From the NCBI GenBank assembly GCA_000182565.2, contig KQ257455.1: DNA of 64,000 nt, one strand, 5' to 3'. The notes beneath the pieces were generated by a model. It worked only from the letters and a program-made list of their open reading frames with translations. It had not been told where the DNA came from and searched no databases. This document shows, one piece after another, positions 6,162-64,000 of the stretch; the first letter of the stretch is position 1; each line of letters opens with the position of its first letter. The translations under genes were made by a program, and so were the position numbers. This DNA comes from Spizellomyces punctatus DAOM BR117. Taxonomy: Eukaryota.

Positions 6162-7050
6162 TATAGATGGGATTCTTTGCGATAGAAAAGGTGTGAAATA
6201 CTAAAAGCACTCAGAAGATTGCGACAAATGGGTCGAAAGCATCGCGTTCAGTTCAGCGTTCAGTTGGGTAACTGCTCCGGTTATCACGTGAATGTCCATT
6301 ATCCCTTTTTTGGACAAGTCCGGATGTGTCCAGGAGTCAGAGTGGCTGTGCACACAATATAAACTTGCATGACTGTGCATCTTATCTCTACTGCATCAAA
6401 GTCTTGCATTTCCAACGAATGCACACAGAAAGATATCTGATATTGCCATTACGGCTTTTGGGATTCATTTCTGGTAACGCATATAGGGTTTTCTTAATGA
6501 CCACTCTACACAGCTATCCTCACTCCATTTTCATGTTATTTCCTTTCCCAAATTCGAGATTTATTGATATTTGAGCTGGCTGGTAGGTTACAGATGATGT
6601 ACAAGGTCGCATATGCTAAAAAGAACAGGAAGAAGCTACGTCTAAATCTCAAGTTTCGCTGCTTTTGACCTGGACTTTCTCTGTAATGGTATGCGACGTC
6701 GATCATTGCACGACTAGTTAGGCCATACGATATGCAATACGCTTGTACACCCGATACACCAAGCCAATATGATACACATATGTGCGTAAATTTCACTGAT
6801 GCAAACGGCGGGCGTGGCTCAGCGGACGGCTCGCAGCTAAGCCGAAGCCACGAACCCTAATCCCCCGTAGCTATCATCTTGATTACTACCTAGTTATTCA
6901 ACATGGTTATTAAATATAACAATCGGTGCGTTCGCTAGCCGTCCATTGAGAATCCAATAACCAAGTGGTTCAAGCTGAGCCCTGTAAACGAACCATACAC
7001 CACTAGGTAATTACATGATAGCACCACCGCCCAACTAGGATTCAGCAGCT

Positions 7051-7995
7051 ATGAGTGATAACAAAGTCGTAATGAGCGTACACGGCGAGGAGTGGGCAAG
7101 AACATCCACCGACGATAACCCAAGCATACCTAGCGTACCCAGCGATGGTAATTTTGCGGCAACGCCCGATACCATCGATAAAATCATCAATGATGCCGTC
7201 ATTGAGTTCCGACGCAGGCTCGAGGCTGCGTTAAAGAAAGGAAACCTGCCCCTACCGAAAGAAACCCTCAAAGCGGGCAGAGGTACCACACCCGTACCCC
7301 AAGATGACCCTGATGGTCTAGCGCTTAAACGCGATGATCCTATGGAACAACAATTACTGAAAACGCTTTCAAAGAACTTACCGCAGTTCTCCGGTTCGCA
7401 GAACCCCATTGTTTTGCGAAGGTTTATCGGCTCGCATCGAGATTATTTGGACCGAATAAACGCTACAGAAACCCAGAAAGTGGCATTAATCACCCCATAC
7501 TTGCGAGGCAATGCCCGAGAATGGTACCGCGATTTGGAGCAGGGCGATGCCATACCGCCCACCGCGGCCGCATTGTTCGATGCACTGCGTACAAAGTTCG
7601 TTGGCCGAACACAGATAGGCAAACAATTGCGTCAATTGCGCTACAAAGGATCCATTTTGCGATATACTAGAGACTTCTCGCGTCTCCGTTACGCCGCTCG
7701 CCTCGCCAGCGATGATGACCCGATTTTCGAATCAGACTTTGAGAAATATTTCCTCATCGGCTTACGCCAAGGTGCCAAAGGTGGACCAGAGATTGCTAAC
7801 ACGGTAACAACATTGAAATTCCTAAGACCCAAAACAGCAAACACCGCCGATCAGCTGGAACTCGACGCTAAAGAAGCCTTCAATGAACTAGGCTATGTCG
7901 AACCTCGGCAACCATCGCGATCAGCGCGCAGACGGCCAATCGCACGGAAAGGAGTAAGTGGATCAGGCACACGCACGACGGGGTACTCCCGATAA
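7051..7995 (+). mobile_element. Stand-alone Ty3/Gypsy-type retrotransposon Gag (capsid) ORF, 314 aa, no pol
   Basis: Intronless ORF with Retrotrans_gag-type motifs: LPQFSG, YLRGNAREWY, FDALRTKF, MHR-like LRQLRYKGSILRYTRDFSRL and YFLIGL. It ends in a basic tail. No protease, RT or integrase ORF follows. Confidence 0.8.
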
Positions 7996-24002: not shown

Positions 24003-24999
24003 CTAACACAAAAGCGGAATTTTCTCCATCTTTGCTTGCCATGCCATCTTCTCTTCCAACAGTTTCTCTTGCGCTCCCGGCGGGCGAGGCTCGATCGGGA
24101 TATCCTTGCGTCGTTCTATGAGGTCCTCAGTACGAACTCCCTCGCTATTAAGAAAATTCGATACGGGTGTTCAATAAAGTTGTGTATGGAGATGGTGGAG
24201 GAAAAGGGTACGCACCGTTTGTCCCGTTGTTCGAGTAATTTTGGATCGATTTGGTTGTCGGACGTAAAGGACATCATGAGAGAAGGGGGACCTAATAGTT
24301 GGGAGGGTGGATGTAGCCTACGGGTAACGATTTTTCAAAAATAACACCATACCGTATGGTAAAATATCACCTCGATCAATCTGCCATAAATGCCTAACAT
24401 AGACACAGCACAATCAAGACTCGTATGCAAACCACATTAAACGCGCAAGTAAGAACGCAAAACAAAGATTTACCATGTCTTTCCATAGGTATTCACCACC
24501 TTACTCAATTCCTTCCTCTCAATTTCTTCATGCACGGCAGCAGGTACGAAGCGCGAAACAGGTAAAGTCAAAATCCCGCCCTTGACTTCATAAGTATGCG
24601 AATGCCAATACACTTTTTCAGACTCGGGGAGATCATTGTAGAGTTTAGATGAGATAATGTACTCGACGCCAATGAGTCTTGCATCTTTTTCGGGGCTATC
24701 GTATATTACGCATTGAAGCATATCTGAACTTAGATGCGAGCAGTAATGGTGAGCTTCAACCTACAAGTTTTGTTTTTAGTGTTTTTGTGAACTCTAGGAT
24801 AAATAATGATGGGTGTACATTTTACCTGACGAGTCATATCATGCGCATACACATGAAACCCGCAGAGATGGCGACAGATTTGTTCAAGAGGTGTAAAACT
24901 TTGAACAGCTTTGGCACCGAGACCCATGGCGGTTGTTTCGAGGGAGGGTTCCTCGCCTGGGACCTTATATCCATCACCGATCATTGTTATTATAGTCAT
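24003..24999 (-). CDS. DUF1264 / oil-body-associated protein (OBAP) family, multi-exon
   Basis: HLCGFHVYAHDMTRQ|VEAHHYCSHL...QCVIYDSPEKDARLIGVEYIIS...YWHSHTYEVKGG...TYGKTW and GPPSLMMSFT. Start is ATG 24999 or 24984. Confidence 0.92.
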
Positions 25000-25001
25000 T
25001 T

Positions 25002-25750
25002 GATAGTGTAGAGGTGACAGAAACTGGCACTAGCTACTACACCAGGGAATAAACCGGCGACAACCGGTTCGGAAAAGCTAAGCTACTACTAGGCAATTAT
25101 ACACGCAATACGTAACGGTTGGTTTTAACCGGATAATTGCCCACCACTACACGCGGTCCCTACTAGGCCTTGATCTGGAACTCTTGATGGCATTGAAGCC
25201 AGACTCTTGCATCCAGGAGCAAATCGACTGGGCAGCGTCACAAGCCAGAGGATGTTCAGTAACGAAGGCTTGGAGACTAAAAGCTGCATGTTAGCCAGAT
25301 GACCCGATGACAGAATGACAAAATGCAATCAGTACATACCAACCAAGCTCAACAAGTGTGGCAGCATAATAGCAGCTTTGTTATCGAATCCGATTGGTTG
25401 CTGCTGGTTCTGATCACGGTTGCTGTCGGGCGGTCGAGGTCCTCGGCACCAGAGCAGTATTCTCATGGTGGACTGAGATTTGTTGGGCGGATGCTTTGAG
25501 TCGAGGATGGGTAAAGAGGAAAGAGGGAAGAGGGAGAAGGTCCCCTTTTTATAGACCTTTGGCATGCGCCTCACCGCAGTTTAAAAAAAAAGCTACATTA
25601 GCATGCCACACTGCAGTTTGGAGAACATTAGCATCCATGCCTCCTCACCGCTTTGAGCAATGATGGGGGTTCTGATTATGCGATATGATTAACCGGATTA
25701 TCCGGATAATAATGGGTCTTAGTGCCATTTTCAATCACCACCACACTATG
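25002..25750 (-). mobile_element. Non-autonomous TIR element, copy 2 (~750 bp)
   Basis: 30-bp imperfect TIRs: atagtgtagaggtgacagaaactggcacta (25003-25032) versus the reverse complement of 25720-25749, atagtgtggtggtgattgaaaatggcacta (5 mismatches). The left two-thirds matches copy 1 and the right third matches copy 3. Confidence 0.85.
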
Positions 25751-28509: not shown

Positions 28510-28838
28510 TTGTGTGCTGGGATGCCCAGGGAATGGCTACCCAGCCGCCCTTACAAACCTCCTATAATACCCGTAAATGAACTATGCAGGGAGCAGGGAA
28601 TGCCGTGAGGGGAGGATGAAGCGAAAGTCTAACGCAACAACGAAAAACACGTCGAGAGTCCGAATGGACTGGACATTGGGAGACGAGGATGTGTCAGCAA
28701 TAGATCCACGGATGAGATGACGTTAATAAAGAACTCGAACATTCGTAATAGTTTTCTAATTTGCATTTCAATATCCTCATTCCTCTTTTTTTGCAATTCC
28801 TTTTTCCGCATGTACCATCTGACCCCCACCACGCACAC

Positions 28839-29981
28839 ATGCCAACAGCCGATTGGACTCTCATCCTCTGCATACTAGGCGGAGGAGGGTTAGCCCTCCA
28901 AGCCGGAATGAATGGCACACTGGGTACACTTTCGCGAACAAAACTCTTTGCATCATGTTGGTCATTTGGGAGTGGGTGTTTGCCGCTTTTGATTTATTTT
29001 TTGGCGACGATGCGGGGGGTGGAGATTTCGAGGGCATATCATGGTATGATATCTCATTTTGCGGAATGACTCGAATGTTTTTTTGGATTGTGGCTAATTG
29101 TGATGAGTTTAGATGCACCTCTCTATGCACATTTCGGGGGTATCATGGGAACCATCTACGTTGTCACAATCGTCTACCTCGCACCCCGTCTCGGCGCAGC
29201 ATCCCTACTCAGTACAGCCATTGCATCCCAAATGACCACTGCATTACTATTAGACCATTTTGCGTGGTTGGGATTAGAGAGACGGGAGGCGAGTGTAGGG
29301 AGGGTAGTAGGTGTTTTATTGACCATTTTTGGTGTGGTTGTTATGATGGGGGGTCTCGAGTGGGTACGTAGGGTACTCCGATCCGATCAACGGCCAAAAA
29401 GTGATGAAGAGCATCAACAGCAGGACATGGTGATGGGAGACAGTACGAAACCCGATCCGATAGTAAATGAACCCACTACCACCACCACCACAACAACAAC
29501 CAAAACGCAACCCAAGAAGCCAGATTGGACACTCTTGTTTTCTATTCTTGCTGGTACCTCATTAGGTCTCCAAGCCGCCATGAACGCACAACTCGGGCAC
29601 TATTCCACACCCGCATACAGTGCCCTATTCTCTTTTTCCGAAGGCTTTATACTTCTTCTACTGTTGTTTTTATACGATGTGACGATGGGACCTACATCCC
29701 GTCTCGACCCACCATGGACACTCAACATTGTGACGACAGTACCCTACTGGGCCTGGCTGGGTGGATTCCTTGGCGCCGCCTACGTCCTCATCGTCACCAT
29801 CGCTACACCTCGTTTAGGCGCCGTAACAGTCCTAGGTACATCTGTATGCGCACAAGTCATTGCAGCGGTCTTGTGTGATCATTTTGGGATTGTGGGATTA
29901 CCGGTGCAGAAGGCGGGGTGGGAGAGGTGTGTGGGTGCTGTTGTTGTTGTGGGGGGTGTGGTTTTGATTACCGTTTTGTAA
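28839..29981 (+). CDS. DMT-superfamily transporter with two YdcZ/DUF606-like domains, 2 exons
   Basis: Two internal repeats: LALQAGMNGTLG / LGLQAAMNAQLG, GGIMG / GGFLG, APRLGA / TPRLGA and LLDHFAWLG / LCDHFGIVG. Intron at about 29044-29112. Confidence 0.85.
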
Positions 29982-30875: not shown

Positions 30876-30975
30876 NNNNNNNNNNNNNNNNNNNNNNNNN
30901 NNNNNNNNNNNNNNNNNNNNNNNNNNNNNNNNNNNNNNNNNNNNNNNNNNNNNNNNNNNNNNNNNNNNNNNNNNN
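30876..30975. other. Assembly gap (100 N)
   Basis: Run of N bases. Confidence 1.
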
Positions 30976-33067: not shown

Positions 33068-34292
33068 GCTTTTGTAGTTTGGAGAAAACAGGATCTACTC
33101 GAGTCCGGTGGTAATTAATGGCGAGAGGTAATTACTAATCTTTGCGCTAGTCCAAAACCTGCCAAGTAAAAAAAAGGGCATGTTGCGGTTAGCCACAGGT
33201 GACTACAAGACAAGCACCCAACCAACAAGCGTTGACTAATATCCTCCACAAAATTGAGTATTGCCAAACTCGTTCCCGTTTGCAGGCAGAACAAGGAATG
33301 CCATTTTATGCTCTGCAAGCACGCGTCAGCATCACCCAAAAACTGTTTGCCGCAGTTTTGGTTTTTGCACCATCCGAATAACATTACGGCAAACAAACAT
33401 CCACAAGACCGCTCAAGCGCAATGAGTTGCAAGTGTAGTTGTCTGTCCCAAAGCATTTCACCACCATTATTCGACAGACGCCCAAGATGACCAAACCCGG
33501 TTATCTACGGTCCGCATCAAGAAAAACTCACCAAAAACTACCGTCTCAGACTTTGAACCCGTACAAACTAGAAGACACCAAACGATTCGTCAATGCTTCT
33601 CTGCTACGTCCAGTTGGGACTGACAGTAAGTAAACCGAGAAGAAAATGAAAGCGATGGGTTATGCTGTAGTTTGCGGTTTTCCTTGCCAAAACGCTGCGC
33701 TAAAGGTCTACGGATTCGGGATGGAGGCGTGACTCTTTTGTGGTGACTGTGCCCAGAATTGCTCATGTGATTCAAGTCATGTGATATGCAGAGTGCCTAA
33801 ACGATGCATGCAACCCGCCCATTGGCATGCGGCCATGATGGCAGGAACGCATTCCGCATACGGGAATGACTGGGTTCTTGTAAAGAAATGAAAATCAGGG
33901 TCGCAATCCCGCGCGTGAACTAGCCGCATCAACGCATTTTGAACAGTGGGCACAGTGGAACACATTGGGGCGCCAACACTACATTCTGATTTCAATCCCC
34001 ATGTTAACCACCTTGTGTGTGGGTGTGTTTGCAACCACAGACTGTTCAATGCATGATAAAAAGCAAAATGTGTTTTGGTTGTGGCAGCATTGGCGAGAGC
34101 AATGTAAAGAGTTTGTAAACATTGGTGACTCGACGGGCGTGAGGGGATTTTGCCCTAGGTCGAGGCATAAGCAGCGCAAATGGCAGATGGAGGGGCGAAT
34201 CGAGCGCAACCTGATGTTTTTTTGGACTATAAATACCGCCAAAGAGCCCGAATACCCACACACACACACTACGCATAAAGCAGCTAGCAAAA

Positions 34293-34904
34293 ATGTACCG
34301 AATGCAAACTGGAATCCGCCTGTGCCGTCCCCATGGACTAGCGCCTAGTCCTTGGCAGGCAACGATAGCGCTCACACCATGGGTAAGAGGCTCTGCGAGT
34401 GAATGCAAAAAGAATGCCAACGACGGCAAAAGCTGCACCCACACCATCAAACGGCATGCAAGCTCTGATGAAAACCCGTTCAAAACCCTTGCATTCTGGA
34501 CACATGGATATGCATGGAAGCGAGCCTCTGTGAATACGTTTCGATGCCTCGTTGGATGCTCTGTGGGAGACCTGAGCGCCCTGTACTACCTCCAAACGCA
34601 TACCCAACTACCCATGCATGTGACGATGGGAGCGAGTATGGCGAGTGGGATATTGACATCTGTAATACTAGAAACCCTACTGTTGCAAATGACTGATGGA
34701 ATGAATGCGAGACAAGCCTACAAGACAGCAGTGGGAATGTCCCTTGTGAGTATGCTAGTGATGGAGAGTGTAGAGAATGTCGTGAGTCTGAATATAGGGA
34801 ATACGAGTATAGCGAGCGTGATTGTGAGTATGATGAGTGGATATATAGCAGCCCTCCCATACAATTACTATCAATTGCGTAAATACAACAAGGCCTGTCA
34901 TTAG
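34293..34904 (+). CDS. DUF4396-family membrane protein, single exon
   Basis: WKRASVNTFRCLVGCSVGD, TSVILET, AYKTAVGMSLVSMLVMESVEN and C-terminal LPYNYYQLRKYNKACH. Confidence 0.8.
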   Translation: MYRMQTGIRLCRPHGLAPSPWQATIALTPWVRGSASECKKNANDGKSCTHTIKRHASSDENPFKTLAFWTHGYAWKRASVNTFRCLVGCSVGDLSALYYLQTHTQLPMHVTMGASMASGILTSVILETLLLQMTDGMNARQAYKTAVGMSLVSMLVMESVENVVSLNIGNTSIASVIVSMMSGYIAALPYNYYQLRKYNKACH

Positions 34905-45018: not shown

Positions 45019-48000
45019 ATGTCTTTGGCGGCAGACTTTGCGTCAAGGGTCTTGCATGCAATCACATCGGGGGAGATACGTAATGAGACTGGGATAAATA
45101 TCTCGAACGGAAAGGCGACCTCCATCTCTCGGGGTACACTCCAACATGTGTCTCATACTCTGGAAAGGAGCATCGCGGACGCAAAGGTGAGAGGAAATGC
45201 GTGTAAGAAGGATATAGATTTCCTTTATGTCACTCACGATGCCATTTAGTACCAAATAGAAACCCATCTTGTCTCAAACTTTGACACGCTGCGACAACGT
45301 GTAGAGGAAGCCGCGGCGGTTGAACGCGAAGCTCGTGACATTTCCGACATTCTGAGCACCCTTACACACCGCATTGAGGATCCAAATGTGAGCGAGTGGG
45401 TTATTACTCAGATCCTAACTATTGTTGTTTCAACTACTCACGTTGTTTGTAGGATGGATTGTGTGCTCAGCTGGAGGAAACGTTGAAGGAGCGGGAAAAT
45501 GCGACCGTTGAGCTTGATACAATCGATTTGCAAATCAGGGTTTTAAAAACTATCATGGAGGTGTGAACGCTGTTTCCGTTGTCCTACTCGTGACATTTCA
45601 TACTCATTTTGAACGAATCACAGATCTCGGCTCGCATGACAGAGTGCGAAGAATCTCTCGCAGCAGCCGACTACCCGGCGGCATTGAGAGCCGCCTCGGA
45701 AATGGTACTCTACTATTTCTGAATGCCTTTTTTTTGGCAAAGCGGCTGATTCCAGCGATCTAGGGTAGACTTGTCAGCCAACTACCGCCCTGGGAGAATG
45801 TGGCTATATTCTCGCACCTTTCTGTAGGTCATGGGGTGTTCAATATGGGTACCGGGACAGCTGCTCTAATGCTTTACCGCTTTCTTGGTGTGAAAGGAGC
45901 GCAGTTCCAGTATTCAAGAAGACGTGCAGGGCCGGTTGGAATACATCGTATCACAGGGCATGTCTGTTGAAATTATGGATTCGAGTTCAGTGCAAATCAA
46001 AATCCAGCTGTCTGTTTCCGGTGAGCATACAGGTATTGTGGTTTCATGAGCGAATGTGGTCCGCTTAGTATAGTGTTATCGTCATAGCACCTGGTCTCGG
46101 TCCGCAACCCGTCGCGTTAAGCACGGCACTGTCTGCTATCTACGCGGAGAACTTGGAGTCACACTATCTGAGACCCTTTCTGAGAATGTTGTACAAGCAT
46201 GTCATTGATCCACTTGCGCGAGATCCGCGATGGTCATTGGTAGAGCCATCCTCGCAGGACCGAGATGGCACGTTGACGTTGCAGGTCCAGATGGCTCAGG
46301 CAAGCCCTTTTTTAAAATGGACTGACTTGCCTCCAGGTACGAATCTTTCAGAGAGCATAAGAGGTAGTGATGATGCTCACATCAAATTGGCCTACAGGAT
46401 CAATTTACAAAGGGCTAAAGCAAGTCCTTACCTTTCTTGAGCATGCCCTCAACCAATCAAATAGCGAGAACTCTCGCCCAATGTTTCGATTATTGGGGGA
46501 ACTGTTTTGGACCCAGTTGTCGACAACCATAATTGCAGAATACCTTGAACGTGCCGTTCCGGATGAAGCGGATGGACTTGCAGCCTTTGCAGACGTTACA
46601 CGGGAATCCGAAGCCTTTGAAGATTGGCTCGTTGCGAACGGTGAGGGGGTTGTGTGATTGGCTTGGCCACTCTATGAGGCTGTGCTCATGCAAAAGATCA
46701 TACCTAGAATTGATATCTGACGGCAACAAGGTTCTGACCGAGTACTGCAAAAACTCTGATGTACACTTTGCGAACAAGAAGCATTTGAAATTAATACAAG
46801 CGGCTCGTGAGATCATTATGAAAACGGACTATTCTACGGTCATGCTTGCAGAATCCAAGCCACTACCTCTTCCTACGTTGATATCATTACCGGAGGGTGA
46901 AGCGAATATGGAATCGATTGAGATTGGCGATGAAATTGAGGATTTATTTTCGTTTCCCTCGTGTGCTATCAGCACTAAAGCACAGCAGTTGCTGCAACTG
47001 GTGATTACTACGCTTTCCGACGCTGCAAAGCTGACTCCTTACTGGTATGAGCCATATTTGGTTGGTATAGTACACTCTATCCCAAAGCCTTAACCCGATC
47101 GGTATAGCGCGAAACGGATGGTTTTGTCAACGCGGGACATGTTTGACCTTTTTCGCGCGATGGTTCCTGTTTATGATGGGTCGAAATTGGATTCCATCCC
47201 GCAGCTCTCCATGGTATTTTACAATGACTGCATGTATCTGGCCCATGAGTGTATGACGCTGGGATGGCGGTACCGCGAAATGTTGGGAGGAGGAAGTGAA
47301 ATAACGTTTATTGATATGGTGGCACCATTCCGGAGCTTGGGGGACAAGTATTACAATGTGCAGATGGTGAGTATCGTAGAAAATGGCCTTAAGAGTATCC
47401 TTGTTTGTCCGATGACTGAATATTCTTTGCCATTTAGGAAATACAACGAAAAAACTTGCTTGACTGTATTGAAAGTGCAGGCGGTTTTGATGTGTTGGCT
47501 GAGAGACGGCACGAGATTGTTGAGCGGGCAATTAAACAAGTATTGTACCAGTTAACCCATCTGTCCAAGGTTTGGAAGGTATGGAAATCTTTCACAGCAC
47601 GCAGTGTAGTTGTCCATGACTGACATGTGACCATAGCCTGTGCTATCACCGTCCATTTACCTGCTGGCCATGGGAAGTCTCATAGACTTTACAATGGACC
47701 GCATCATCACCGAAATCAAGTATCTAATCGATATTGCCGAAGAAGAGTCGCATAAACTCAACCAGCTCTTGACAAAATTCCACACTTCGATCCTCCCCCT
47801 TCTCTCGCATGATTCCATCCCATCTGACAAAATACCAACGCTGGCCGGTCATTGTATTTCTCAATACGAAAAGTTTATTCAGGTGACGGATATTCTCGAC
47901 CTCTCGTTTGCGGATATCATGGATAGATTTAGGGATGGACGATTGAAGGTACTTGAAAAAGAGGAGCTGACTGGATTGGTCAAAGCGTTGTTTGCCGATA

Positions 48001-48056
48001 CGCCTTTGAGAGTCAAGAATTTAGAAGAGATTGTACGAGGGTATCCTGATGGGTGA
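45019..48056 (+). CDS. ZW10: Centromere/kinetochore protein ZW10 (Dsl1/NRZ complex), multi-exon
   Basis: YLERAVP, YCKNSDVHFANKK, FSFPSCAIS, IPQLSMVFYNDCMYLAH, DIAEEES and ELTGLVKALFADTPLR. Confidence 0.9.
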
Positions 48057-48373
48057 TGAATAGGCTTCATCTATGTATTTATCTGTTGCTGTCCTTTTAT
48101 TTAGTTCTGTCTGATATATATTTTGTATTGCATGAAGATGATAATTGATAAAGCAAATCGGCCGATCGCGTTGTGATGACAGTGTGGCTTGCGCAGCAGC
48201 CGCGTGCGGACATGAAGGATGACGCAATGCATTTCGTCCCGTCACAGCTCTCTTTTTGCCTTTCAGTTTCTTTGTTTTTTAAACTGAACCTTTTAACCTC
48301 ATTCCCCCCCATCCAAAACGTACGCACGCATCGTACATTCAAAAGATTTCAATTTTCTCCCTCTCATAGGAAA

Positions 48374-50990
48374 ATGACCATCAATTCATCGTCTGCAGCA
48401 ACACATCGACCTGAACAAGGCCGGCCGTACCCCGTCTCGACGTACCGTGTACAGCTCAGAAAAGAGTTTGGGTTTGCGGATGCGGAGGGTATTGTACAGT
48501 ATTTGAAGGATCTGGGTGTTACGCATTTATATTGTTCGCCTTACTTGCAGGTAAGTTTTGTTGTTTAGTAGAACTTTGAGCGCTCTCTCACTTTTGACAT
48601 GTAGGCCACCCCTGGATCTGCCCATGGATATGATGTCGTGAACCACAGTGTGATCAACAAGGAACTCGGCGGCGAAAAGGTATCCCTGTGTTAATCCATA
48701 CAAAAAAATTCAACATAATTTTAACCCACGTACTTAGGGCTTTGATAATCTCATCAAGAAGCTACACGCTAACAACCTCCGGGCGATCGCAGATATCGTG
48801 CCCAACCATGTCTCTGTCGCCGATCCAGAGAATCTCAATCCATACTGGTGGGATACTCTAAAGCACGGAAGGGATTCACGTTATGCCAGCTGGTTCGACA
48901 TTGAGTGGGATCATCCCCAGTTGAAGGGAAAGGTCTTGCTACCGGTCCTGGGTGGACCTGTTGAAGAGATTATTAGCCGGGGCGAGCTCAAGGTGGAACA
49001 TGAAGATGGTGAACCGGTCCTCAGTTACTGGTCCCATGTGTTTCCGATAAAACCTGGAACAGAGGCGCTAAAGGATGACATTGCCAAACTGGTTGAGGCA
49101 CAGAATTACAAACTGGCGTTTTGGCGGGTCACATTAGACGGAACATTAAACTACCGACGGTTTTTCGATGTCACGACTTTGGCAGGAATTCGAGTGGAAG
49201 ACAAAACTGTATTTGATGAAACACATGCCATATTCGTTAAACAAATCCGGGATGGTGCTTTGGACGGATTGAGAGTGGATCATCCAGATGGACTAGCAGA
49301 TCCTCAGGAATACGTTGAGAGATTAGCGGAGAGCACAGGAGGCTCATGGATTGTCATTGAAAAGATTCTGGAAGAAGGGGAGGAATTGCCAGCTTCGTGG
49401 CCTTGTGCTGGAACGAGCGGATATGACTCGTTGATTCGAATTACCGGGCTGCTAGTGGATAAGAAGGGAGAATCACCCTTGACAGATGCATACCACAAGT
49501 TTACCGGGTTGACCAAGGATTTCAAAACAGTTGTGAACGAGTCCAAGCATTTCATTTTGGAAAAGTCGCTAGTAGCCGAAGTAGAGCGGTTGGTATCGCT
49601 CTTGATGATAATTCAGAAAGAGGACCAGCAGGCACATGATTTGAAGCGAGACTCTATCCGTGCGGCATTGGTAGAATTCTTGGCAGCGTTTGACGTGTAC
49701 AGAGCATACATTCAACCCGGAAAACCAATCCCAAAAGAATCTCTTGTACATCTCGCGTACGCTGACGAGACTGCTAAAAAGGCTTTCAAAGGGCTGCGGG
49801 ATGCCGAGGTAGAGTTTATTGTACGGGCGGCTGCGTACAAGTCCGGTACCTCCCCTGCAGCGAAAGAATTTGTGAGCCGACTGCAACAGACTTGTGGACC
49901 GGTTATGGCCAAGGGAATTGAAGACACGGCGTTTTACCGCTACTTTCGGCTGACGGCTTTGAACGAAGTAGGAGGCGATCCTGGCAATTTTGGTAAATCT
50001 CCCAAAGAATTTCACGAAGCCTGCCTCTCCATGCAGTCCAACTGGCCCCTTTCAATGACGACGCTCTCTACTCACGACACGAAGCGTTCGGAAGACGTTC
50101 GTGCGCGTTTAGCCGTCCTGTCGGAAATCCCACAAGAATGGTCTGAACGCGTTCAGCAGTGGTCCTCTCGTGCAGAGGCATTAGGTCTTCGCAAAGGCCC
50201 TACACTCCCCGACAAAAACACGGAATACCTCTTTTGGCAATCACTAGTTGGAACATTCCCAATCAGCAAGGACCGGTTGGTAGCCTACATGGACAAAGCC
50301 ATCCGAGAAGGGAAAGTTTACACATCGCATACGGATGCTGTAAAGGAATTTGATGATGCTGTAAAGAATTTTGTAGAGGGTGTATTGGACAACAAAGACT
50401 TGTTGGCGGACGTGGAGAAATTCGTCACGAGAATACAAGATTACGGACGCCTCAATGGACTGACCCAAAAAGCTATCCAGCTCACCATGCCCGGCATTCC
50501 GGATGTATACCAAGGCTGCGAAATTGAAGATTACAGCCTTGTTGACCCAGATAACCGCCGACCCGTTGACTTTGCCAACCGGCGCAACCTTCTTACCAAG
50601 CTTGACCACCAAAATACTCCCCCAAAAGTTGATTCGGTTGGATCAGCAAAATTGTACCTTGTCTCCAGACTCCTCCGGCTGAGAAGAGAGCACCCTAGTT
50701 GGTTCGTAGGTGAAGAAGCGACGTACGAGCCTTTACAGGTTAATGGGCCCAAAGTGGACAACGTAATTGCCTTTGGACGGTCAGGGAGGGTAATTACCGT
50801 TGCTCCTAGATTATGGGTCAGCATCAAGGAAGGCGGTGGATGGCAAGGAACGACAGTACGGTTGCCAGAGGGGCAGTGGAGGGATGTATTTAGTGGGAAA
50901 GTAAGAAAGGGCGGCGAGCTAGAGGTTGAGAGTCTGATTGAAGAGTTCCCCATCGCTGTGTTGGTTAGAGAAGGTCTGAACGAAGAGTAG
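48374..50990 (+). CDS. treY: Maltooligosyl-trehalose synthase (GH13, TreY). Exons 48374-48550, 48605-48679, 48738-50990
   Basis: PVSTYRVQL, LYCSPYLQ|ATPGSAHGYDVV, DIVPNH, WWDTLKHG...FDIEW, NYRRFFDV, catalytic GLRVDHPDGL, IEKIL and STHDTKRSED, GPVMAKGIEDTAFYR and LVDPDNRRPVD. Two GT-AG introns splice in frame. Confidence 0.95.
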
Positions 50991-51016
50991 ATAGCTTGGC
51001 AGAAAACACATTTTCA

Positions 51017-51694
51017 CTAGTCCTCCTCTTTCATTTCGTACACAATACTTTCTTGAGAATTATCAGAGTTATCCCGCTTTATTTGCCCCAATGAGTTTTC
51101 CACTTCGGTCAACAACAACGACACTCTTTTCGCTGCTAGTTCCAAATCCTTTTCTTCTCCTGCGAGACTGGCACGATAGGGAATGGATCGACCCGCTGCA
51201 GCCAAAATGCCAGACTTTGAAAGATGTCGAAAGATGCGCCGAAGATAGGATTGGATTTCCTAAAGAAGTCATGGTACTCCAGTCAGATAACCCGACCTCT
51301 AATTCCCTGGAAAACGTCGCTACGTACGTTTAAGGTTTGTACATAAACCTGAAAGCTTTCCGCAAACTTTTCCTCCGCCTCTTCACCGTCCGCTTCATTC
51401 GCTAGTTGTGCTACGGCCTCACTTGCAGATGTCAACAGTAGAACAACCCTCTGCAACAAAAACCGAAAACGCGTGAGGGGTACAACGAAGCGAGGATCAA
51501 AAGGCCATTGAGCAGTGTACAATTCGTTGCCCCACTGAGGAGTGTTAGGCTCATACCTTTTCAACAGCAGATAGTGTTCGCAACAATTGTTCATTTTCCA
51601 ATTGTGCCTGCAACACCGCATTGGTCTGTTGCTGGCTTTCCGGGTGGGGAGTACTGTGGCCGGACGAGATGGAATCGTCAAGTTCCTCTTCCAT
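51017..51694 (-). CDS. MED11: Mediator subunit Med11-like, 3 exons
   Basis: LRTLSAVEK|RVVLLLTSASEAVAQL...FQVYVQTLN, then a final exon with IQSYLRRIFRHL. Size and helical pattern fit Med11. Confidence 0.65.
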
Positions 51695-51991
51695 ATCCTC
51701 GCACGCGGGTTTGTAGGGCCAGGTCAACGAACTATGTTACGCCATGCAGAAATAAAATGGGTCGCAAAGACGGATGCTGCTGAAATGGATCTCTAGATCT
51801 CTTGACGCGAAGCTTAAAAAATGGTTACACAGGGAAATGAAGTGACCGAGTCGCTCGGAGACAAATGTTATGCATTGAACTGACTGGTGAGGTGCACCTT
51901 GTGAGATAAAGTACCAATTACGTTGAGCAAGGGACGCAGTGGTAAGAATTAGGATTTATCAATTTGCGATAATGGCTTCATATATACATGG

Positions 51992-53177
51992 TCAATGACG
52001 AGACGCAGCTCCAAACCCAATTGGATCTTTCCCTGCTGCTATTCGTTCTTCCTCTTCTCTCAAAGCTGCATCTTGTCTCTTTAGTAAGGTCTGACCGATT
52101 TGCTTGGCAGTCTGCAAGTGTACCAATGCGAAACGTGAGAGTAAGAAATATGTAGGCAAGTAAAGGCGGTGCCATTGAATACGCATTCTGGACCAGTTCT
52201 TACCTGAACCATTTCAGCCAATAGACTTGGCTCGATACCACCATGTCCTCCCTTTTGGAGCGCGCACAGATTACCACGTCGATTTACAGCCACGGTTAAT
52301 CTTGCAGACGAACATAACTCTTCCAAGGGTGCTGCATCGACAATGTGACGGTAGCCAATCTATCAAAAAGGCACCAGGTGATGAGACACCTCTTTCAACG
52401 GTATAGATTCGGCTCGATCCTACCTTATTTAGCGATACACAAAGGGGTACATCTTCCCAGCCTCTGATTATCTCTGTTTCCTCATCTGCAATGTCAAACT
52501 CCACTCGTCCGTCCGACTGCTCTACCGTGGCACGAGGAATTCGGGTATTGTGCAGCGCTCCTCTGGTAGCCATGAATATAGCATCCAACAGGTTTCCTCC
52601 ATAATCCAAAACCAAGACGTCAATATTCAATATCCAACATGTTGACCCCGGAATAATACATAGCGCCTTCAAATCCACACCCCCATGGGACCCATTCAAC
52701 ACTCGATTCATGAATTGACTGTACTCATTGCACATATCTTCAATGTCGCGCGGTTCGAAAATGCGCGTTGCCGACGGTGAGCATTCAACATTACAAATTA
52801 TTCTTCCTCTGTCCTTGTCCTTCACCATCGTAATCCCATCATCTTGGTCCATTTGTTCCATGTCTTCCAAAATATCCGCCTCCTCTGCCTCGACCTCGGG
52901 TTCAATACTGCCAACTTCAACTTTTACGCCAACCAATATATCCGTCCCGCCATCAAGTGTAACTCGGCAAGATCCAGATGCTTGTGTTATCATGCCTGTC
53001 TCTAGGACAAGCTCGCGAAAATCCAGCCGAGAACGGCCATCCGCTCGAATAGAAACATCGACGCCTTTGGTTATATAGTCACTAAGGCATACAAAGAGTG
53101 AGTGATATGATGCAGATTAAAGATACCCTGAGCCTAGTAGGACTTTCAGATACGCACCGTTCGCTGACTGAAATCAT
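51992..53177 (-). CDS. RRP42: Exosome RNase PH-like subunit Rrp42, multi-exon
   Basis: MISVSER|DYITKGV...IRADGRSRLDFR...QASGSCRV, DILVGVKVE, DLKALCIIPG..CWILNIDVLVLDYGGNLLDA and VDAAPLEELC. Confidence 0.93.
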
Positions 53178-62267: not shown

Positions 62268-62436
62268 AATACTCATTCAACACGTTTCATTTTGATTGCG
62301 TAAAACTAATTAGATGACTCACGATCACTGTGATTCAGATTTCAGCCGACCCAGCCGTGCTGTATATCTGCTGTGTATTGTCCCATCGTCTGCCCATCCC
62401 ACTGACCGTTTTCGTTGATAAAGACAAATATCAAGC

Positions 62437-64000
<1,564 letters not shown>

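What the first reader, a model, noticed from the sequence alone, without database searches (positions are those of the whole stretch)
48374..50990. Bacterial-type TreY trehalose synthase with spliceosomal introns in a zoosporic fungus
Seen: a full-length GH13 maltooligosyl-trehalose synthase with all three catalytic motifs intact (RVDHPDG, IEKIL, THDTKR). Two GT-AG introns (48551-48604, 48680-48737) lie near the 5' end, followed by one 2.25-kb exon. The gene sits between the eukaryotic genes ZW10 and MED11. Established: the TreY/TreZ glycogen-to-trehalose route is the bacterial/archaeal pathway, while fungi canonically use Tps1/Tps2. Inference: a horizontally acquired gene has been domesticated by intron gain, giving a second route from glycogen to trehalose, possibly for desiccation or resting-spore survival. 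The introns and flanking genes argue against contamination. No treZ is present in this window.
Basis: partly seen in the sequence, partly recalled or inferred. Interest (0 to 1): 0.8.

Follow-up and report, generated by a model that had tools for sequence, protein, structure and literature searches.

The report
Bacterial-origin trehalose synthase TreY in chytrids
A soil chytrid fungus carries an intact, spliced and transcribed copy of a bacterial-type enzyme (TreY) that starts converting glycogen-derived chains into trehalose, apparently inherited from one old gene transfer into the ancestor of two chytrid orders.

Summary
Window 48374-50990 (+) encodes an 834-aa malto-oligosyltrehalose synthase (TreY) in three exons. 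TIGR02401 scores 801 bits on exon 3 alone and 919 bits on the full public protein (cut-off 499). Both GT..AG introns (48551-48604, 48680-48737) are absent from a 933-nt contig of public run X3. The protein is letter-for-letter residues 50-883 of the Spizellomyces punctatus DAOM BR117 protein already named 'malto-oligosyltrehalose synthase', so the gene itself is not new.

It is not confined to this species. Nine other chytrid genomes (Spizellomycetales and Rhizophlyctidales) hold orthologues at 58-95% identity, and these form one clade (support 100) that follows their taxonomy. The next hits are Actinomycetota TreY at 48-53%. Trees place the chytrid clade inside an Actinomycetota-only group (SH-aLRT 96-99), but AU tests (p 0.35 and 0.10) do not reject a sister position.

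GC3 is 0.51, like the host genes, against 0.91-0.98 in actinobacterial TreY. ZW10 lies upstream; 'MED11' is only a sub-threshold hint.

The best reading is one ancient bacterium-to-chytrid transfer, followed by intron gain and vertical descent. Whether the partners TreZ and TreX exist could not be tested because no genome is held, so the 'second trehalose route' remains inference. No paper on this was found in the searched library.

The parts
48374..48550 (+). TreY exon 1 (59 codons, ATG at 48374)
   Evidence: Residues 20-58 match TIGR02401 profile positions 1-39 (48.7 bits). The exon ends TTGCAG before GTAAGT. This start coincides, within about 3 alignment columns, with the start of 8 of the 9 orthologue models.
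48551..48604 (+). Intron 1, 54 nt, GTAAGT..TAG, phase 0
   Evidence: Skipped in X3 contig record 8 (joint 48548>48603, 'skips 54, GT..AG, cut +2'). An in-frame TAG lies at 48566-48568 (the ORF end). GC is 0.37.
48605..48679 (+). TreY exon 2 (25 codons)
   Evidence: Residues 1-24 match TIGR02401 profile positions 41-64 (31.2 bits).
48680..48737 (+). Intron 2, 58 nt, GTATCC..TAG, phase 0
   Evidence: Skipped in the same X3 contig (joint 48677>48736, 'skips 58, GT..AG, cut +2'). Its length is not a multiple of 3. GC is 0.31.
48738..50990 (+). TreY exon 3 (750 codons plus stop). It carries the motifs DIVPNH, GLRVDHPDG, VIEKIL and THDTKRSED.
   Evidence: TIGR02401 gives 801.1 bits over profile positions 66-838 of 838. 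PDB 6lcv 'MTSase' gives 490 bits, colinear over query 4-745.
50991..51122 (+). Likely TreY 3' UTR, overlapping the 3' end of the convergent neighbour
   Evidence: In RNA run X8, sense (+) depth is 29.6 in bin 50721-50921 and 35.2 in bin 50922-51122, falling to 0.18 in the next bin. The exact end is not mapped.
46361..48053 (+). Upstream host gene, ZW10/Dsl1-like (3' exons)
   Evidence: Pfam hits are Zw10_middle (38.1 bits), ZW10_C (75.3 bits) and ZW10_C2 (70.1 bits). X2 contig 47242-48463 joins it to TreY exon 1.
51011..51723 (-). Downstream convergent host gene with a 68-nt intron (51259-51326); possibly Med11
   Evidence: The joint 51258>51327 is seen in 5 reads of RNA run X8 and in an X3 contig, and a poly-T loose end lies at 51011. 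Med11 PF10280 gives only E 0.019 and 15.8 bits, below the 26.9 cut-off. X2 contig 49789-51578 joins it, unspliced, to TreY.

Best explanation
The locus is a functional, cytosolic malto-oligosyltrehalose synthase (TreY; GH13; EC 5.4.99.15 by family assignment) of Spizellomyces punctatus.

Origin: the gene descends from one ancient transfer of a bacterial treY, from an Actinomycetota-like donor. In that group treY sits in a glgX-treY-treZ operon. The recipient was the common ancestor of the soil chytrid orders Spizellomycetales and Rhizophlyctidales. Since then the gene has taken on host base composition, gained two short phase-0 introns at AG|G sites near its 5' end, acquired its own transcription unit between ZW10 and a convergent neighbour, and been inherited vertically under purifying selection.

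Mechanism (inferred from the family): the enzyme takes a linear alpha-1,4 malto-oligosaccharide with a free reducing end and flips the last alpha-1,4 bond to alpha,alpha-1,1. The product is non-reducing malto-oligosyltrehalose. Trehalose is then released either by a TreZ encoded elsewhere in the genome or by a host exo-glucosidase.

Shown here: gene structure, splicing, transcription, family membership, conservation, distribution, and nearest relatives.
Inferred: enzyme activity, direction and donor of the transfer, the downstream step, and the physiological role.
For: Family membership:
- TIGR02401 gives 801 bits on exon 3 and 918.7 bits in one stretch over residues 69-877 of the full public protein P0287, crossing both exon junctions.
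- All 10 chytrid proteins score 865-926 bits against the 498.65 cut-off.
- PDB MTSase 6lcv gives 490 bits. The Atlas model of P0287 has pTM 0.89 and TM 0.90 to bacterial TreY clusters.

Intact and constrained:
- DIVPNH, GLRVDHPDG, VIEKIL and THDTKR are present in 10 of 10 chytrid proteins.
- 308 of 922 alignment columns are invariant among the 10, at 56-95% pairwise identity.

Spliced and transcribed:
- An X3 contig lacks both introns. The same run also lacks the neighbour's intron, which on-record RNA run X8 also splices.
- X8 sense depth is about 30-35 at the TreY 3' end, similar to the 3' ends of the neighbours.

Part of the host genome:
- Window ORFs hit Rad51, gamma-tubulin complex, Vps39, Velvet, ParcG, Ras, ZW10, RNase PH, PIG-Y, GLTP and PGI.
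- GC3 is 0.51, against 0.39-0.58 for 11 host coding pieces and 0.91-0.975 for 5 actinobacterial treY genes.
- Unspliced X2 contigs bridge ZW10 to TreY and TreY to the downstream gene.
- The orthologues lie on contigs of up to 725 kb, and this one on a 1.5-Mb contig.

Bacterial origin:
- Of the 120 best of 8000 scored proteins, 9 are chytrid clusters at 58-95% identity. The other 111 are at 48-53%, and all 17 of those that carry an organism name are Actinomycetota.
- Among 1.84 billion representatives the score falls from 1167 bits (the chytrid cluster) to 674 bits.
- The best named genomes are Actinomycetes MAGs, Frankia sp. QA3, Kineococcus and Kribbella.
- The chytrids form one clade with support 100 in all three trees.
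- That clade sits inside an Actinomycetota-only group: 142 rows at support 100 in FastTree, 60 rows at 96 under LG+G4, and 23 rows at 99 under LG+C20 PMSF.
- Within the clade, Rhizophlyctidales pair together and Powellomycetaceae form a clade.

Donor-type operon: glgX-treY-treZ was found in 3 of 4 loci checked (L002, L005, L006). L007 has glgX-treY only.
Against: - Two AU tests do not reject trees that hold all Actinomycetota-type rows together with the chytrids outside (p 0.346 and delta lnL 12.0; p 0.101 and delta lnL 18.0). 'Nested in Actinomycetota' is therefore favoured, not settled.
- The trees are unrooted. The direction of transfer rests on distribution.
- No TreZ, TreX or other GH13 gene lies in the 64-kb window, and the rest of the genome could not be searched. 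The canonical pathway is unconfirmed.
- On-record RNA run X8 has zero depth over both splice sites (bins 48309-48710). Splicing rests on one contig of run X3, whose library kind is not on record.
- Only the 120 best hits of each search are visible, so more divergent eukaryotic TreY genes could be hidden.
- NCBI files one carrier, Phlyctochytrium arcticum, under Chytridiales.
- No enzyme assay exists.
Confidence: 0.8

Rival explanations
1. TreY works without a TreZ partner. The bacterial enzyme has been wired into eukaryotic glycogen catabolism, and host exo-acting enzymes (glucoamylase GH15, alpha-glucosidase GH31, phosphorylase) trim malto-oligosyltrehalose down to trehalose. Alternatively, the non-reducing oligosaccharide itself is the protectant.
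For: - No TreZ or GlgX lies within 48 kb upstream or 13 kb downstream.
- No fused TreY-TreZ or TreX-TreY form with chytrid-level identity appears among the 120 best long proteins, all at 45% identity or less.
- A review table lists GH15, GH31 and GH37 enzymes in zoosporic fungi (PMC6690862, passages seen).
- That glucoamylase leaves the trehalose end intact is recalled, not checked here.
Against: - In bacteria treZ is often not adjacent either: 3 kb away in L002 and absent beside treY in L007. After transfer to a eukaryote, operon genes need not stay together, so absence from the window says little.
- Long-term retention of TreY is most simply explained by a complete pathway.
Confidence: 0.25
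2. Vertical inheritance: TreY was present in early fungi or eukaryotes and was lost everywhere except in these two chytrid orders.
For: - The gene tree inside the chytrids follows taxonomy.
- The AU tests do not force the chytrids inside Actinomycetota.
- The trees are unrooted.
Against: - No other eukaryote appears among the 120 best near-length, 120 best longer or 120 best shorter hits.
- The chytrid clade joins one actinobacterial subgroup with SH-aLRT 96-99, rather than branching outside bacterial diversity.
- This reading would need many independent losses.
Confidence: 0.05
3. Bacterial contamination or an assembly chimera.
For: The best non-chytrid hits are bacterial.
Against: - Two introns are removed in a public contig.
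- GC3 is 0.51, against more than 0.91 in the bacterial relatives.
- The gene is flanked on both sides by intron-bearing eukaryotic genes on one 1.5-Mb contig.
- Unspliced contigs of run X2 bridge both flanks.
- Orthologues occur in 9 other chytrid assemblies.
Confidence: 0.01
4. A decaying or silent relic of a transfer, with no present function.
For: X8 depth over the gene body is near zero, 0-0.25 in most bins.
Against: - X8 is strongly 3'-biased for every gene in the stretch, and the TreY 3' end has depth about 30-35, like its neighbours.
- The open frame is intact and all motifs are kept in 10 of 10 species.
- All 10 proteins score well above the equivalog cut-off.
Confidence: 0.04

Closest known systems
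Actinobacterial TreY of the glgX(treX)-treY-treZ locus (e.g. Frankia sp. QA3 L002, Mycobacteriales MAG L005, Kribbella sp. L006)
   Same: Same family (TIGR02401), about the same length, 48-51% identity over nearly the whole protein, same motifs.
   Different: The chytrid gene has two spliceosomal introns and GC3 of 0.51 instead of 0.91-0.975. It has no neighbouring glgX or treZ, and its flanks are eukaryotic.
Solved MTSase structures: 6lcv/6lcu ('MTSase'), and 5zcr, 1iv8, 3hje (maltooligosyl trehalose synthases)
   Same: Colinear alignment over query residues 4-745 to 6lcv (490 bits), with the GLRVDHPDG, EKI and THDTKRSED blocks aligned.
   Different: The three other entries (5zcr, 1iv8, 3hje) are more distant at 278-327 bits, matched in two stretches. 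No chytrid enzyme has been solved or assayed. The source organisms of these entries were not given by the tool.
Fungal Tps1/Tps2 (trehalose-6-phosphate synthase and phosphatase) route
   Same: Same end product, trehalose (recalled general knowledge).
   Different: Those enzymes are unrelated (GT20 and a HAD phosphatase) and use UDP-glucose plus glucose-6-phosphate rather than glycogen-derived chains. Whether S. punctatus has them was not testable here.
Bacterial CAZyme genes acquired by zoosporic fungi (Neocallimastigomycota cases cited in PMC6690862)
   Same: Bacterium-to-zoosporic-fungus transfer of a carbohydrate-active enzyme (passages seen).
   Different: Those cases are mostly secreted plant-wall enzymes in gut fungi. 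This one is an intracellular storage-sugar enzyme in aerobic soil chytrids, and it is fixed across two orders.

Membership tests
TreY / malto-oligosyltrehalose synthase (NCBIfam TIGR02401, equivalog) | Full-length match above the curated cut-off (498.65 bits) | tested here: met
   Exon 3 alone scores 801.1 bits. The full public protein P0287 scores 918.7 bits in one stretch over profile 1-838. The 9 orthologues score 865-926 bits.
TreY / malto-oligosyltrehalose synthase (NCBIfam TIGR02401, equivalog) | GH13 conserved blocks carrying the catalytic Asp (RVDH), Glu (EK) and His-Asp (HD). The role labels are recalled. | tested here: met
   GLRVDHPDG is at residue 261, VIEKIL at 290 and THDTKRSED at 529 of the 834-aa protein. 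D181, E208, H446 and D447 of exon 3 are invariant in a 13-sequence alignment with bacterial TreY. The blocks are present in 10 of 10 chytrid proteins.
TreY / malto-oligosyltrehalose synthase (NCBIfam TIGR02401, equivalog) | Fold of solved MTSase | tested here: met
   Sequence match to 6lcv_A is 490 bits over 742 query residues. The Atlas's own model of P0287 has pTM 0.89 and TM 0.90 to bacterial TreY clusters over residues 60/63-880. I made no model of my own.
TreY / malto-oligosyltrehalose synthase (NCBIfam TIGR02401, equivalog) | Intramolecular transglycosylation of the reducing-end alpha-1,4 bond to alpha,alpha-1,1 (EC 5.4.99.15) | not testable with these tools
   This needs an assay of recombinant protein on maltodextrins.
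TreX-TreY-TreZ glycogen-to-trehalose pathway | Presence of TreZ (TIGR02402) and a debranching enzyme (TIGR02100) in the same genome | tested here: inconclusive
   Neither lies in the 64-kb window (Pfam on 207 ORFs plus one shorter ORF). No whole genome is held. No fused forms at chytrid-level identity were found.
Horizontally acquired bacterial gene in a eukaryote | Eukaryotic sequences nested within a bacterial clade with support | tested here: inconclusive
   The chytrids are nested with SH-like or SH-aLRT support of 100, 96 and 99. AU tests give p 0.346 and 0.101 and do not reject the un-nested alternative.
Horizontally acquired bacterial gene in a eukaryote | Patchy, narrow distribution in eukaryotes against a wide one in bacteria | tested here: met
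   Only the 9 chytrid clusters plus S. punctatus appear as eukaryotes in the visible hit lists. There are 13,896 representative hits at E up to 1e-3 in all. The limit is that only the best 120-150 rows are shown per search.
Horizontally acquired bacterial gene in a eukaryote | Physical integration in the host genome (introns, host composition, linkage to host genes) | tested here: met
   

The most novel reading that the evidence does not exclude
Spizellomycetales and Rhizophlyctidales run a hybrid trehalose route. A lone bacterial TreY caps cytosolic, glycogen-derived malto-oligosaccharides with a trehalose end, and ordinary eukaryotic exo-glucosidases or phosphorylase, not a TreZ, finish the job. 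Alternatively, the non-reducing malto-oligosyltrehaloses themselves accumulate as glass-forming protectants in resistant sporangia. Either way this would be a lineage-specific adaptation to the drying-wetting cycle of soil.
Probability: 0.2. Interest if true: 0.7.

Novelty: new member of a known kind. Interest (0 to 1): 0.5.

Why it matters
- The passages I read describe the TreY-TreZ route only in bacteria and archaea (PMC11046441). A search for TreY and TreZ in metazoans found none (PMC8277472, passage).
- A TreY kept intact, spliced and expressed across two orders of soil chytrids would be a clear case of a bacterial storage-sugar enzyme fixed in a fungal lineage.
- The carriers are typical soil chytrids (PMC9024642). 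Soil zoosporic fungi are said to have adapted to drying-wetting cycles through resistant sporangia (PMC3261367). This gives a testable link between the gene and stress survival.
- S. punctatus is a laboratory chytrid, so the question can be addressed by experiment.
- The locus also offers a dated example of intron gain in a gene that must once have lacked introns.
- The gene is already named in the public annotation, and transfers into fungi are well known, so this is an interesting instance rather than a new principle.

Tried and rejected
- Whole-genome search for TreZ and TreY in the window's own genome: no genome is held. TreZ, TreX and Tps1/Tps2 status therefore stays open.
- I did not query the big protein collection with a bacterial TreZ. 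Only the best 120 rows are listed, and a chytrid TreZ at about 50% identity would rank far below bacterial ones.
- Earlier findings of this scan: nothing by place, by words, or by a bacterial TreZ sequence.
- Sequencing-run search: no RNA holder is listed for the stretch. Evidence came only from laying runs X8, X1, X3 and X2. X1 gave one 261-nt piece and adds nothing.
- LG+C20 tree on 85 rows did not finish in two calls. It was replaced by LG+G4 on 85 rows and C20 on a 36-row subset.
- Longer (over 1313 aa) and shorter (under 412 aa) relatives: the best 120 of each are at or below 45% and 55% identity, and none is named as fungal. No chytrid fused or fragment forms were seen, which is weak evidence.
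- Metagenome scan for environmental chytrid copies: 1 locus at 44% identity (L081), not followed up.
- Atlas search with the window's own exon 3 was not possible. The stored identical public protein was used instead.
- Literature: no paper holds 'maltooligosyltrehalose synthase' with 'chytrid', or 'Spizellomyces punctatus' with 'trehalose synthase'. Listings show no title on a chytrid or fungal TreY. Of the listed papers I opened PMC8277472 and PMC11046441 and PMC6690862, as passages only.
- Searches were badly framed, because one or three chytrid words sufficed for a hit, and are uninformative. Supplements are closed, so CAZyme or HGT tables that might list this gene could not be seen.
- Med11: Pfam on the two exons gives only a sub-threshold hit.
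Full report
**1. What is in the sequence**

- exon 1, 48374-48550, 59 codons, ATG at 48374
- intron 1, 48551-48604, 54 nt, GTAAGT..TAG
- exon 2, 48605-48679, 25 codons
- intron 2, 48680-48737, 58 nt, GTATCC..TAG
- exon 3, 48738-50990, 750 codons plus stop

Both introns are phase 0 and sit at ..CAG|G and ..AAG|G. Intron 1 holds an in-frame TAG, and intron 2 is not a multiple of three, so retaining either would truncate the protein.

The three exons match the NCBIfam TreY equivalog TIGR02401 colinearly. Exon 1 covers profile 1-39, exon 2 covers 41-64, and exon 3 covers 66-838 of 838. Exon 3 alone scores 801 bits against a cut-off of 498.65. Pfam sees only the N-terminal alpha-amylase block. The solved 'MTSase' 6lcv aligns over query residues 4-745 at 490 bits, with the GLRVDHPDG, EKI and THDTKRSED blocks in register.

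**2. Whose gene it is**

The spliced 834-aa protein, joined by coordinates in a script, is letter-for-letter residues 50-883 of XP_016608827.1/KND00788.1. That entry is 'malto-oligosyltrehalose synthase [Spizellomyces punctatus DAOM BR117]', encoded on a 1.5-Mb contig. So the gene is already in the public annotation under the right name, with the same two introns.

The annotated model starts 49 residues further upstream. That extension has no counterpart in 8 of the 9 orthologues; the ninth, P0002, has an unrelated extension. It also lies outside the TIGR02401 match (which starts at residue 69) and outside the structural match (which starts at 60-63).

**3. Splicing, transcription, linkage**

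- A 933-nt contig of run X3 (depth 12.4; library kind not on record; 8 single-base differences from the window, so another strain or sample) lies on 48472-48548, 48603-48677 and 48736-49516. It skips 54 and 58 nt with GT..AG ends.
- The same run also lacks the 68-nt intron of the downstream gene (51259-51326). Five reads of the on-record RNA run X8 skip that intron too. That X3 is RNA-derived is thus an inference, but a strong one.
- X8 is 3'-biased with 60-nt reads. It has no depth over the TreY splice sites. Its sense-strand depth is 29.6 and 35.2 in the last two bins of the gene (50721-51122). This is like the 3' ends of ZW10 (31.9) and of the two minus-strand neighbours (27-55).
- Run X2 carries unspliced contigs 47242-48463 (ZW10 into TreY exon 1) and 49789-51578 (TreY into the downstream gene, intron retained). 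X2 may come from the same sample as the assembly, so it is not independent support.

**4. Surroundings**

Pfam on 207 stop-to-stop ORFs of at least 90 aa, plus one shorter ORF, shows an ordinary eukaryotic neighbourhood. The hits are a LON-domain RING protein, Rad51, gamma-tubulin complex protein, Vps39, Velvet, Bmt2, ParcG, Ras, ZW10 (46361-48053), RNase PH (52084-53116), PIG-Y, GLTP and PGI. There is no second GH13, TreZ or GlgX. The downstream gene gives only a sub-threshold Med11 hit.

TreY has GC 0.495 and GC3 0.51. Eleven host coding pieces have GC3 of 0.39-0.58, and five actinobacterial treY genes have 0.91-0.975. Contamination is excluded, and the transfer is old enough for the composition to have fully converged on the host's.

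**5. Distribution**

In the 5.8-billion-protein collection, 8000 candidates were scored and the best 120 listed.
- The first nine rows are chytrid clusters:
  - Spizellomyces 'palustris', 95% identity
  - Phlyctochytrium arcticum, 72%
  - Powellomyces hirtus, Fimicolochytrium jonesii and Geranomyces michiganensis, 69% each
  - Borealophlyctis nickersoniae and Thoreauomyces humboldtii, 67% each
  - Rhizophlyctis rosea, 63% (partial)
  - Gaertneriomyces semiglobifer, 58%
- The remaining 111 rows are at 48-53%. All 17 that carry an organism name are Actinomycetota.
- All ten chytrid proteins pass TIGR02401 at 865-926 bits and keep the four motif blocks.
- Searches among longer and shorter proteins and a metagenome scan added no further eukaryotic copies.
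- Against 1.84 billion representatives, the score drops from 1167 bits (the chytrid cluster) to 674 bits.
- By NCBI taxonomy the carriers belong to Spizellomycetales and Rhizophlyctidales. The exception is P. arcticum, filed under Chytridiales. I recall that this species was moved to Triparticalcar (Spizellomycetales), which would fit its place in the tree, but I did not verify the synonymy.

**6. Phylogeny**

| Tree | Rows | Chytrid clade support | Smallest supported group that contains it |
|---|---|---|---|
| FastTree | 265 | 100 | 142 rows, support 100; includes the named Actinomycetota hits |
| IQ-TREE LG+G4 | 85 (41 from named genomes) | 100 | 60 rows, otherwise Actinomycetota only, support 96 |
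| IQ-TREE LG+C20+F+G4 (PMSF) | 36 | 100 | 23 rows, same kind of group, support 99 |

- In the LG+G4 tree a second actinobacterial clade and the non-actinobacterial rows lie outside the 60-row group.
- In the PMSF tree the Pseudonocardiales/Micrococcales/Micromonosporaceae clade is excluded from the 23-row group.
- Inside the chytrid clade, the two Rhizophlyctidales pair (support 90-94) and the four Powellomycetaceae form a clade (99). The gene therefore follows the organisms.

Against this, AU tests that force all Actinomycetota-type rows together without the chytrids are not rejected (p 0.346; p 0.101). The trees are unrooted. The chytrid rows also differ in amino-acid make-up from the rest, as flagged. 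The safe statement is that the chytrid TreY is closest to, and probably within, Actinomycetota TreY. In four such bacterial loci treY follows glgX, and in three of them treZ lies downstream.

**7. How it most likely works**

[quoted passage not shown] TreZ then releases trehalose, and TreX with phosphorylase supplies linear chains.

The conserved N-terminus (MTINSS..HRP..GRPYPVSTYR) carries no obvious targeting extension (my reading), so a cytosolic enzyme acting on glycogen-derived oligosaccharides is likely. Which enzyme supplies free reducing ends, and which one releases trehalose in the chytrid, is unknown. It may be a TreZ elsewhere in the genome or a host exo-glucosidase. This is the main gap.

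The link to drying tolerance is ecological inference only. The carriers are soil chytrids (PMC9024642), and soil zoosporic fungi are said to cope with drying-wetting cycles through resistant sporangia (PMC3261367).

**8. Verdict**

It needs correcting in one respect: this is an ancient, order-level acquisition followed by vertical descent. The pathway claim is unproven.

The gene is a new eukaryotic member of a known enzyme family and a known kind of event. It is already correctly named in the public annotation. I found no paper on it in the searched library, and supplements could not be read.

Noticed in passing
window 48227-48373 (+): The public S. punctatus model (P0287, 883 aa) starts 49 codons upstream of the 48374 ATG. 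That extension is absent from 8 of the 9 orthologue models and lies outside the TreY profile and structural matches, so it is probably an annotation over-extension.
   Followed up: partly
window 50990-51122: TreY and the convergent minus-strand neighbour appear to overlap at their 3' ends. A poly-T loose end in 10 reads marks the neighbour's poly(A) site at about 51011, 21 nt after the TreY stop. TreY-sense reads continue to about 51122.
   Followed up: no
window 28752-29978 (+): Two ORFs hit PF04657 (DMT_YdcZ, 'putative inner membrane exporter', 174.6 bits, two stretches). The Pfam description calls the family an inner-membrane exporter. It may be worth checking for bacterial origin.
   Followed up: no
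window 24473-25029 (-) and 34233-34901 (+): Genes with DUF1264 (141.7 bits, split by an apparent intron) and DUF4396 (101.4 bits). Function unknown.
   Followed up: no
window 7039-7992 (+): A 318-aa ORF has weak, sub-threshold hits to Retrotrans_gag and Ty3_capsid (23.7 and 22.8 bits). It is possibly a retroelement remnant.
   Followed up: no
window 30876-30975: A run of 100 N, an assembly gap.
   Followed up: no
L013 (contig labelled MAG: Janthinobacterium lividum): Its TreY is sister to Kineococcus sp. G2 with support 100, inside the actinobacterial clade. The contig is probably mis-binned, or this is a recent transfer.
   Followed up: no
P0002 (Phlyctochytrium arcticum): NCBI taxonomy files this species under Chytridiales, but its TreY sits inside the Spizellomycetales clade next to Spizellomyces. 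I recall a transfer of the species to Triparticalcar (Spizellomycetales); this was not verified.
   Followed up: partly
window 62422-63999 (+): A phosphoglucose isomerase gene in at least three exons runs off the window end. It is an ordinary glycolytic gene about 11 kb from TreY, and no link is implied.
   Followed up: no
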